Below the pieces are notes generated by a model that saw only the letters and a list, made by a program, of their open reading frames with translations, searched no databases and was not told the DNA's origin. The translations under genes were made by a program, and so were the position numbers. Of a stretch of DNA of 64,000 bases, positions 4,701 to 7,700 are shown in pieces; within the stretch, counting starts at the first letter, position 1; every line of letters starts with the position of its first letter. The DNA is taken from positions 12,090,001 through 12,154,000 of the forward strand of contig NC_091475.1 in NCBI RefSeq assembly GCF_036971445.1, written 5' to 3'. The DNA is from Narcine bancroftii. Lineage: Eukaryota.

Positions 4701-7700
4701 GTGGATGGGGAAAGAGGGAAGCCCCAATATCATTCTACCTGACTTGGCCATTCTTCTCCTCCTCTTCCTCCTCATTATTCACTCCTTCTGTTGCCTTGTT
4801 TGCTTTTCCCCTACCCTCTTTCTCTGTCTAGCTTCTCCCAGACCAGTCCTCCTTCACTTTTGCCCTTAACCCAGTAATAAGAAGAAAAGGGGAGCATGCT
4901 CTGCCATTAAACTATCTGTCCCGGGTCCCAGCTTCTCTCTGTGCAACCTCAGTCTTTCAAAAATGCATATACTTTCTCTTTAAATACTTCCAGTGATGTA
5001 ATTTCCACAACCCTCTGTGGACAAGAATTCCCAACACGTCACCTTTTTTCTTTTCTACACTCCACTTTGACTGCCTCTTGATCCCTCTCCCTTCCTCTGT
5101 CCTTCTTGCCCATTCCTTGACCCATCCTCGCTTCTATTCAACCTCTGGTGCACCAGCATCCCCCTCTAATATCATAGCCTTACCTTCTGTGCGAAAATTC
5201 TCACTCCTTTGTAACTCTGAAGCACTTTCATGCTGGTATATTTTTTTTGTCTCTAGTTATAGGAATTAAATTGAGAGATACAGCACAGTAACAGGTCCTC
5301 CCAGCCCATGAGCCGCACCGCCCAATTACACCCATGCAACCAATTAACCTCCTAACCCTAACCCTTTTGGAATATGGTAGGAAACTCATGGTCATGGGGA
5401 GAATTACAGAGGCAGATTTGAACCCAGGTCACTGGCGATGTAATAGCATTGCACTAACTGCTCACAGTGCTGCCCTCTTCTTATCTGGCATCCTTCTTCA
5501 AGCAGTCTAATGTTGTTCTACATCTTTATGTTGTATTTTATGTAGTCCTCAATATCTCTGTGGATTATGTTCCTGTTCTCTTTTCCATGTGATATAATTG
5601 AGCTACTCGAAATGTGATCAACTATCTATGTGAATTGAGATTGAGAAGACAGTTTGGAAAATGAAAGGCCTCTGGGGACCTCAAGTGCATTTCTCTCTTG
5701 ACTAGTGCGTAACTCCTTCAACCAATCATTTGTACCTCCTGGCTACACACATACTCAAGATTGCTTTATTCTTTTCCTTAATCCCATGAGACTGAAAGGA
5801 ATATCTGACATGCTTCCCTAGCCCCTCAATAAAGGAGTGTTGATACTGATTGTCTATGAAATAGTTCACATAGGGTGGGAATTCTAAACTCTAATCTTGC
5901 TCAAGGTTTGTCCTTTATGCAAAAACAGCTTCTTCCCCTGTGCCATCAGATCTCTGAATGAATAATGAACCTATGGGCACTACCTCACTTTTTCTCTATT
6001 TATTTTTTTAAATCTTGTATTTACAACATTATAATTTATAGTAATTTTTGCACCTGGTTCTGCACAATATTGCTGGGGCAAAACAACAAATTTCATGGCA
6101 CATGTTCATGACAATAAACTTAATCCTGATCCTGAATAATGTCTGATTTGCTTTCCCTTGCCCAGGGATGAAAACCAAACATGCCCTACGACATCACATG
6201 AAGCTGCACAAAGGGATCAAAGAATATGAGTGCAAAGAGTGCCATCGAAAGTTTGCCCAGAAGGTCAACATGCTGAAGCACTGCAGGAGACACACAGGTA
6301 ACTATTGGTGAAAGTAAAACACAGGTAACTAACTATTGGTGAAAGTAAAACACAGGTAACTAACTATTGGTGAAAGTAAAACACAGGTAACTAACTATTG
6401 GTGAAAGTAAAACACAGGTAACTAACTATTGGTGAAAGTAAAACACAGGTAACTAACTATTGGTGAAAGTAAAACACAGGTAACTAACTATTGGTGAAAG
6501 TAAAACACAGGTAACTAACTATTGGTGAAAGTAAAACACAGGTAACTAACTATTGGTGAAAGTAAAACACAGGTAACTAACTATTGGTGAAAGTAAAACA
6601 CAGGTAACTAACTATTGGTGAAAGTAAAACACAGGTAACTAACTATTGGTGAAAGTAAAACACAGGTAACTAACTATTGGTGAAAGTAAAACACAGGTAA
6701 CTAACTATTGGTGAAAGTAAAACACAGGTAACTAACTATTGGTGAAAGTAAAACACAGGTAACTAACTATTGGTGAAAGTAAAACACAGGTAACTAACTA
6801 TTGGTGAAAGTAAAACACAGGTAACTAACTATTGGTGAAAGTAAAACACAGGTAACTAACTATTGGTGAAAGTAAAACACAGGTAACTAACTATTGGTGA
6901 AAGTAAAACACAGGTAACTAACTATTGGTGAAAGTAAAACACAGGTAACTAACTATTGGTGAAAGTAAAACACAGGTAACTAACTATTGGTGAAAGTAAA
7001 ACACAGGTAACTAACTATTGGTGAAAGTAAAACACAGGTAACTAACTATTGGTGAAAGTAAAACACAGGTAACTAACTATTGGTGAAAGTAAAACACAGG
7101 TAACTAACTATTGGTGAAAGTAAAACACAGGTAACTAACTATTGGTGAAAGTAAAACACAGGTAACTAACTATTGGTGAAAGTAAAACACAGGTAACTAA
7201 CTATTGGTGAAAGTAAAACACAGGTAACTAACTATTGGTGAAAGTAAAACACAGGTAACTAACTATTGGTGAAAGTAAAACACAGGTAACTAACTATTGG
7301 TGAAAGTAAAACACAGGTAACTAACTATTGGTGAAAGTAAAACACAGGTAACTAACTATTGGTGAAAGTAAAACACAGGTAACTAACTATTGGTGAAAGT
7401 AAAACACAGGTAACTAACTATTGGTGAAAGTAAAACACAAGTCTACAGACACCGTGCTGGAGAAACTCATCAGGTCAAACAGTACTTCATTCACAAATTC
7501 TGTACCAACATTTCGGGCTGGAGCCCTTCTTCAAGGCCTGAAACATTGGTTATCTTTGCTGTCATACCTTGATGATCTTTGCAATATAAAAGTGCACTGT
7601 TTGACTTGCTGGGTTTCTCCAGCATTGTGTTTTTACGAACTATTGATGGACATCTATTCTCTTTCTTGTCTTGCCATTGAATTGCTGCATGGCTGCCATG

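What the first reader, a model, noticed from the sequence alone, without database searches (positions are those of the whole stretch)
6292..7439. A PRDM15 splice donor amplified into 37 tandem identical 5' splice sites, each extra unit carrying an ACTAAC motif
Seen: the real donor CAG|GTAACT (GT at 6298) is repeated at 6325+31n for n=0-35 with an identical -3..+6 sequence. Reading through the first donor gives GGT AAC TAT TGG TGA (stop at 6309-11), so using any of the 36 downstream donors truncates PRDM15 before its last fingers. Each extra unit, but not the first, contains ACTAAC. Known: ACUAAY is the QKI/SF1 and branch-point motif, and intron-proximal competing donors are often favoured. Inference: the array could be a copy-number-tunable splicing/NMD rheostat or a U1/QKI sink. 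It seems to have arisen by slippage on ACACA microhomology between the exon end and the terminus of the adjacent Penelope-derived element (gtaaaacacaa, 7430).
Basis: partly seen in the sequence, partly recalled or inferred. Interest (0 to 1): 0.8.

Follow-up and report, generated by a model that had tools for sequence, protein, structure and literature searches.

The report
Repeated splice donor in PRDM15 intron
A young 31-base tandem repeat in a cartilaginous fish has copied the splice signal at the end of one PRDM15 exon 36 more times into the intron, an arrangement already known from several human and lancelet genes where the first signal is normally the one used, so it is most likely a harmless oddity rather than a regulatory device.

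Summary
In detail: a 100%-identical 31-bp array (6299-7439, 36.8 copies) puts 36 extra CAG|GTAACT sites behind the real donor (GT 6298) of a PRDM15 zinc-finger exon; each extra unit carries ACTAAC, and any downstream donor reads into TGA 6309-11. The unit is locus-unique and is half intron start, half end of an old Penelope-like element. This scan has noted the same arrangement on other DNA, including two shark genes. ACTAAC is a by-product of a 4-bp duplication, copied passively. Minisatellites are pervasive here, three other perfect 0.9-1.1 kb arrays turned up in 887 kb sampled, and a rough neutral estimate predicts several donor-spanning ones. The element did not make the array by inserting: 0 of 29 other ends carry one. 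No RNA evidence and no read check of copy number could be obtained. Verdict: new member of a known kind, probably neutral; low interest.

The parts
6167..6297 (+). PRDM15 coding exon (131 nt) ending in the zinc-finger H-T-G linker codons; its last bases ACACAG supply the microhomology
   Evidence: residues 768-812 of P0005, 96% identity
6298..6324 (+). Authentic 5' splice site (GT 6298) and first, 27-bp unit without ACTAAC; in-frame TGA at 6309-6311
   Evidence: 10 of 11 Watson-Crick pairs to U1 over -3..+8
6325..7439 (+). 36 identical 31-bp units, each starting with a decoy donor (9 of 11 pairs to U1) and ACTAAC at +4..+9, and ending in Penelope-like element end sequence
   Evidence: (21-mer of the unit: 36 matches in the genome, all here)
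7425..7640 (-). Old Penelope-like element remnant: element end, decayed hammerhead-like stretch (about 7500-7540) and an inverted second end (arms 7444-7483 / 7596-7635, 83% complementary)
   Evidence: (other copies 73-91% identical); no Rfam match
9223..9306 (+). Next PRDM15 exon (84 nt, one finger); its acceptor is the partner of the donors
9789..9964 (+). Following PRDM15 exon (last two fingers), used for gene identification

Best explanation
A real, recently expanded, locus-specific minisatellite of the donor-spanning ('mirage', F7-type) class, with no selected function. Steps: (1, shown) an old Penelope-like element end lies about 15 bases into the intron and shares ACACA with the exon end 27 bases upstream; (2, inferred) slippage between the two ACACA copies duplicated the intron start with its donor, and a 4-base TAAC slip made the 31-bp variant with ACTAAC; (3, inferred) slippage or unequal exchange then amplified that variant to 36 copies so recently that no unit has mutated; (4, inferred from F7 and related genes) the spliceosome keeps using the first donor, which sits at the exon-defined position, while use of later donors falls with distance; any leak to donors 2-3 gives a premature stop and is removed by NMD, at little cost.
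For: Array anatomy. Unit unique to this locus. Element copies are 73-91% identical while the array is 100%, and 0 of 29 other element ends fetched carry a minisatellite, so the array postdates the insertion. Orthologous protein runs across 6297/9223 without insertion. First donor has one more U1 pair and gives a 131-nt exon; donors 6 onward give exons over 280 nt, up to 1243 nt. PMC1557585: F7, LMNB2, PDGF use only the first donor, CBS and 6-16 also the next two; efficiency falls with distance. [quoted passage not shown] Background: three other perfect arrays of 918-1106 bp in 887 kb examined; an arbitrary 8-mer finds 9 arrays in the first 100 rows; rough neutral expectation 15 (3-43) or 7 (0.2-41) donor-spanning perfect arrays per genome, assuming 200,000 donors. 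PRDM15 loss is lethal in mouse and a 15th-finger mutation is loss of function (PMC6954057), which argues against heavy use of truncating donors.
Against: No junction reads for this locus were seen, so first-donor dominance is carried over from mammalian and lancelet genes. The U1 duplex energy is the same for first and later donors (-8.0 kcal/mol), and the first donor is predicted less accessible (0.015 versus 0.03-0.07 unpaired). 36 decoys exceed the 4-25 of the human cases. Mouse heterozygotes were healthy, so a sizeable leak could be tolerated. The close lengths of the four perfect arrays (918-1141 bp) are unexplained and leave room for an assembly effect.
Confidence: 0.72

Rival explanations
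1. Assembly or polishing effect: a short or mixed repeat was lengthened or homogenised into a perfect 1.1-kb array.
For: Four perfect arrays of 23-31-bp period in 887 kb all measure 918-1141 bp, three of them within 110 kb. No read spanning the array was seen.
Against: Chromosome-scale contigs and no N in the 664 kb of blocks checked suggest long reads, which span 1.1 kb (inference). Neighbouring arrays keep their variants (16927-19221, 90%). The first unit differs by 4 bases. 0 of 10 arrays were perfect 1-kb arrays, so homogenisation is not general.
Confidence: 0.12
2. Functional splicing/NMD dial or QKI-dependent switch: copy number or QKI/SF1 occupancy sets how much PRDM15 RNA is diverted to truncating donors.
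For: All downstream donors tested give a stop followed by at least three further junctions. ACUAAY is the QKI/SF1 motif (PMC13004596 listing); QKI binds near weak donors and aids them (10.1101/2025.09.04.674271 passages). Repeat length can change splicing in humans (PMC10078293 passages; ABCA7, PMC5954066 listing).
Against: Zero divergence means no time depth or sign of selection; motif arises from one 4-bp slip; it overlaps the U1 footprint (+4..+9) of each decoy, so binding would mask rather than open the decoys (inference); the nearest non-overlapping UAAY half-sites are 23 and 25 nt away, beyond the 1-20 nt recalled for the QKI element; F7-type precedent.
Confidence: 0.07
3. A mildly harmful private allele: the decoys do divert a large share of transcripts, but the animal carried it on one chromosome only.
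For: Perfect identity fits a very recent expansion; one haplotype is shown; mouse heterozygotes are healthy.
Against: Precedents show little diversion even with 15-25 decoys.
Confidence: 0.07
4. Recursive splicing: each CAG|GT junction with the upstream CTAAC branch-point motif acts as a stepping stone and regenerates the same mRNA.
For: AG|GT at every junction, branch-point-like A 23 nt upstream (seen directly).
Against: No polypyrimidine tract: pyrimidine share 0.35 versus 0.75-0.85 at three real acceptors, and another AG lies between.
Confidence: 0.02

Closest known systems
Human F7 intron 7 37-bp VNTR (Borensztajn et al. 2006, PMC1557585; read parts 1, 2 and 4 of 6: abstract, introduction, first results, start of discussion)
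   Same: First monomer spans the exon-intron boundary; identical donor pseudo-sites follow in the intron; similar unit length.
   Different: 5-9 copies versus 37; shown polymorphic and shown silent there, untested here; here the first unit differs from the rest, half of the unit comes from a retroelement end, and all decoys truncate.
Human CBS intron 13 (15-20 monomers), 6-16 intron 2 (25 pseudo-sites), LMNB2, PDGF minisatellites (as summarised in the introduction of PMC1557585; primary papers not read)
   Same: Donor reiterated by a minisatellite; closest in copy number.
   Different: CBS and 6-16 leak to the next two donors; whether this locus does is unknown.
'Mirage' minisatellites of amphioxus (Adh3, BflGb6, BflGb9; PMC3087553, passages read)
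   Same: Tandem duplication of an exon-intron boundary with cryptic splice signals; border unit escapes homogenisation.
   Different: Mirages carry longer exon pieces (10-160 bp units) and diverge 81-100%; here only 6 exon bases are matched and the units are identical.
Penelope-like elements (PMC8557442, search listing and abstract start only)
   Same: Adjacent remnant: related ends are followed by a GIY-YIG-type ORF and a hammerhead-like core; inverted end pair.
   Different: The array is not part of the element and is absent from 29 other ends.

Membership tests
Donor-spanning minisatellite (F7/CBS type, mirage) | Head-to-tail repeat with unit of minisatellite size | tested here: met
   31 bp x 36.8, 100%
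Donor-spanning minisatellite (F7/CBS type, mirage) | Array starts at a real exon-intron boundary of an intact gene | tested here: met
   PRDM15 exon 6167-6297 ends at the first donor; protein colinear with orthologue
Donor-spanning minisatellite (F7/CBS type, mirage) | Splice signal reiterated in each unit | tested here: met
   37 CAG|GTAACT, identical -6..+7
Donor-spanning minisatellite (F7/CBS type, mirage) | Most upstream donor used predominantly | tested here: inconclusive
   No run on record as RNA; the two guessed-RNA runs showed intronic pieces and no exon joint
VNTR | Copy number varies between alleles | not testable with these tools
   Only short-read contigs of other samples were listed; one haplotype held
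Bipartite QKI response element | ACUAAY core with a UAAY half-site 1-20 nt away (definition recalled, from no call) | tested here: not met
   Core present; non-overlapping half-sites 23 and 25 nt away, others overlap the core. Tandem cores could still bind.
Penelope-like element (adjacent remnant) | C-terminal GIY-YIG endonuclease ORF upstream of the end | tested here: met
   Not in this copy but in related copy L022: Atlas hits 0.96-0.97 to clusters with GIY-YIG (13-42% of members); Pfam scan of four ORFs gave no relevant family
Penelope-like element (adjacent remnant) | Hammerhead ribozyme in the terminal repeat | tested here: inconclusive
   Core motif near the match in 3 of 30 loci, one convincing (L017); decayed in the window copy; Rfam 0 matches at E<=1 for 6200-7800
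Penelope-like element (adjacent remnant) | Telomerase-related reverse transcriptase | not tested
   No full-length copy fetched

The most novel reading that the evidence does not exclude
The 4-base duplication gave every decoy, but not the real donor, a QKI/SF1 site lying over its own U1 footprint. The array would then be a self-silencing decoy set: where QKI or SF1 is abundant the decoys are masked and the first donor is reinforced, and where it is scarce, PRDM15 RNA leaks to truncating donors in proportion to copy number, giving a tissue- and allele-dependent NMD dial on an essential developmental regulator.
Probability: 0.07. Interest if true: 0.62.

Novelty: new member of a known kind. Interest (0 to 1): 0.2.

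Why it matters
As it most likely stands, it is one more natural example that a vertebrate spliceosome tolerates dozens of identical downstream donors; with 36 perfect decoys behind an essential exon it is a clean minigene substrate for testing first-donor scanning versus exon definition outside mammals. It would matter more only if copy number or QKI changed PRDM15 output, which nothing here shows.

Tried and rejected
Sequencing runs: 12 runs listed, no RNA holder on record; this blank is not evidence on expression. Laying four runs on 7385-10200: all were short-read contigs, the tables were swamped by other copies of the repeats in the intron, no joint to 9223 and no piece at the array edge appeared among the rows shown, and the two guessed-RNA runs covered intronic pieces and hardly the exons; no conclusion on splicing or on array reality. 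Idea that the Penelope-like element adds tandem repeats at its end when it inserts: rejected, 0 of 29 other ends fetched (of 39 other matches listed, 445 candidates) carry one. Idea that the unit is a dispersed satellite: rejected. Idea that structure hides the decoys: not supported, folding weak (about -5.5 kcal/mol) and decoys predicted more open than the first donor. Search for other donor-led arrays with CAGGTAAG thrice: 290 matches versus 420 for the reversed control; counts are per unit and dominated by few arrays, so no enrichment test; of the 10 arrays in the 100 listed rows, 8 had a visible start and none followed an evident coding exon by eye (longest open frame 72 codons, not searched against libraries), 2 began outside the fetched stretch. 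Idea that perfect arrays sit beside hairpins: true for this one and for the array at -85 kb, not found for two others (one of the six stretches given there was misplaced and is uninformative). Atlas search with the last PRDM15 exon was uninformative. Rfam: none. Literature search for elasmobranch minisatellites in introns and passages of 10.1101/2025.06.08.657570 gave only general statements on tandem-repeat abundance; no paper on this locus appeared, which do not cover most subscription journals. No supplements were read.

Full report
Observation. The window carries a tandem array at 6299-7439 with period 31, 36.8 copies, 100% matches and no indels. CAG|GTAACT stands 37 times in it, GT at 6298 and at 6325+31n (n = 0-35); ACTAAC stands 36 times, once in each unit after the first, which is 27 bases long. 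The in-frame TGA at 6309-6311 is reached from each downstream donor that I translated.

Gene. An exon two places downstream (9788-9964) returned 545 proteins at E<=1e-10 among 546 candidates; the best are ray and shark PRDM15 at 98-100% identity, so the organism is a cartilaginous fish, probably a ray (inference). A stingray PRDM15 maps in 23 ordered segments from 37 kb upstream of the window to 13495, with residues 768-812 on the exon before the array and 809-839 on the exon at 9223. The first donor is therefore the conserved one. Use of a later donor would keep 13 of the 16 fingers counted in that orthologue and lose about 347 residues, with at least three junctions downstream of the stop, which meets the usual NMD rule (rule from established knowledge).

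Origin. A 21-base piece of the unit occurs 36 times in the 3.33-Gb genome, all here. The last 14 or so bases of each unit match the end of a dispersed repeat that continues at 7440; other copies show the same end. It is Penelope-like: behind a related end an ORF matches GIY-YIG-bearing clusters at 0.96-0.97 (a Pfam scan of four such ORFs found nothing relevant), one copy keeps a hammerhead core that is decayed in the window, and an inverted second end lies at 7596-7635. The copies are 73-91% identical to the window piece, far older than an array without a single change, and 0 of 29 other ends fetched carry a minisatellite. So the element supplied substrate, not mechanism. The simplest history (inferred) is slippage between ACACA at the exon end and ACACA at the element end, a 4-base TAAC slip that created ACTAAC, then amplification of the 31-base variant. 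Which of the 27- and 31-base forms is ancestral cannot be told without an orthologous intron.

Which donor is used. I could not measure this. No run was on record as RNA, and the contigs laid on 7385-10200 showed no joint to 9223 among the rows listed. From sequence: the donors are identical from -6 to +7; the first has 10 and the others 9 of 11 Watson-Crick pairs to U1, but the duplex energy is equal and the first is predicted slightly less accessible (U1 end recalled). Exon length would rise from 131 to 158, 189, 220, 251 and finally 1243 nt. From print: PMC1557585 (parts 1, 2 and 4 of 6 read) studies exactly this arrangement in human F7, finds that only the most upstream functional donor is used in three cell lines, even against stronger downstream sites, and that use falls with distance; it lists LMNB2 and PDGF (first donor only) and CBS and 6-16 (next two also used). 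Loss of PRDM15 is lethal in mouse and a mutation in finger 15 is loss of function, while heterozygotes were healthy (PMC6954057, first part of Results); heavy diversion is thus unlikely if the array is fixed, but possible if it is heterozygous.

ACTAAC. The 36 motifs are one event. 3.2% of shuffled units and 20 of 2022 background tiles contain ACTAAY, so one such unit is unremarkable after the fact. The motif lies at +4..+9, over the U1 site of each decoy; binding by QKI or SF1 (PMC13004596, listing only) would mask the decoys, and QKI near weak donors helps them (10.1101/2025.09.04.674271, passages), so any effect would more plausibly favour the first donor (inference). As a branch point it lacks a pyrimidine tract (0.35 versus 0.75-0.85 at three real acceptors). 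A 'sink' is implausible for one intron of one gene (inference).

Background. In 887 kb examined (264 kb around the window, eleven 40-50 kb blocks, 33 short loci) there are four perfect arrays of 918, 998, 1106 and 1141 bp with 23-31-base units, three of them within 110 kb. An arbitrary 8-mer repeated thrice finds 9 arrays within the first 100 rows, and the donor consensus finds 10, none of the 8 with a visible start following an evident coding exon. Assuming 200,000 donors, about 15 (3-43) perfect arrays, or 7 (0.2-41) if the neighbourhood is left out, should span a donor by chance (rough). The similar lengths are unexplained; 0 of 10 arrays share them. They may reflect a common expansion process or an assembly effect, which is why I keep 0.12 for an artefact.

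Comparison and novelty. It works like, and meets the structural definition of, the F7/CBS-type donor-spanning minisatellite; first-donor use and polymorphism are untested. Earlier notes of this scan report the same arrangement in other genomes, including shark GIPC1 and EMILIN1 (unchecked AI notes, used as leads; one gave the term 'mirage', which I checked); none were listed for this genome. What is particular here is the perfect identity, the retroelement half of the unit, and the QKI/SF1 motif on the decoys only. Human repeats can shift splicing (PMC10078293, passages), so a length-dependent leak is not excluded, but there is no evidence for it.

Verdict. Observation confirmed; origin supported; function not supported. 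New member of a known kind, interest 0.2; novel reading 0.07 likely, 0.62 if true.

Noticed in passing
window 24026-24943; L036:4963-5960 (85 kb upstream of the window); L056:9230 to L057:335 (another chromosome): Three further 100%-identical arrays (26 bp x 35.3, 26 bp x 38.4, 23 bp x 48.1) of 918, 998 and 1106 bp, close to the 1141 bp of the PRDM15 array. Common expansion process or assembly effect; unexplained.
   Followed up: partly
L036:4900-6030: The perfect 26-bp array sits in the loop of an inverted repeat: its two flanks are reverse complements of each other over about 50 bases.
   Followed up: partly
window about 21571-47329 (+): A second C2H2 zinc-finger gene directly downstream of PRDM15 (Pfam zf-C2H2). 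It looks HINFP-like (recalled, not tested); if so it may be a retained paralogue from the vertebrate genome duplications.
   Followed up: partly
window 16927-19221: G-rich 28-bp minisatellite, about 80 copies, 90% identity, between PRDM15 and the next gene.
   Followed up: no
L131:1-6224 (G000:C16, near 210.16 Mb): 23-bp array of at least 273 copies, 99% identical, each with a consensus CAG|GTAAG; its start lies outside the fetched stretch, so a link to an exon is open. L128 (32 bp, at least 100 copies) is similar.
   Followed up: partly
L071-L075 and L140-L143: Two of eleven sampled blocks are wholly satellite DNA (14-bp and 44-bp units, 76-78% identity).
   Followed up: no
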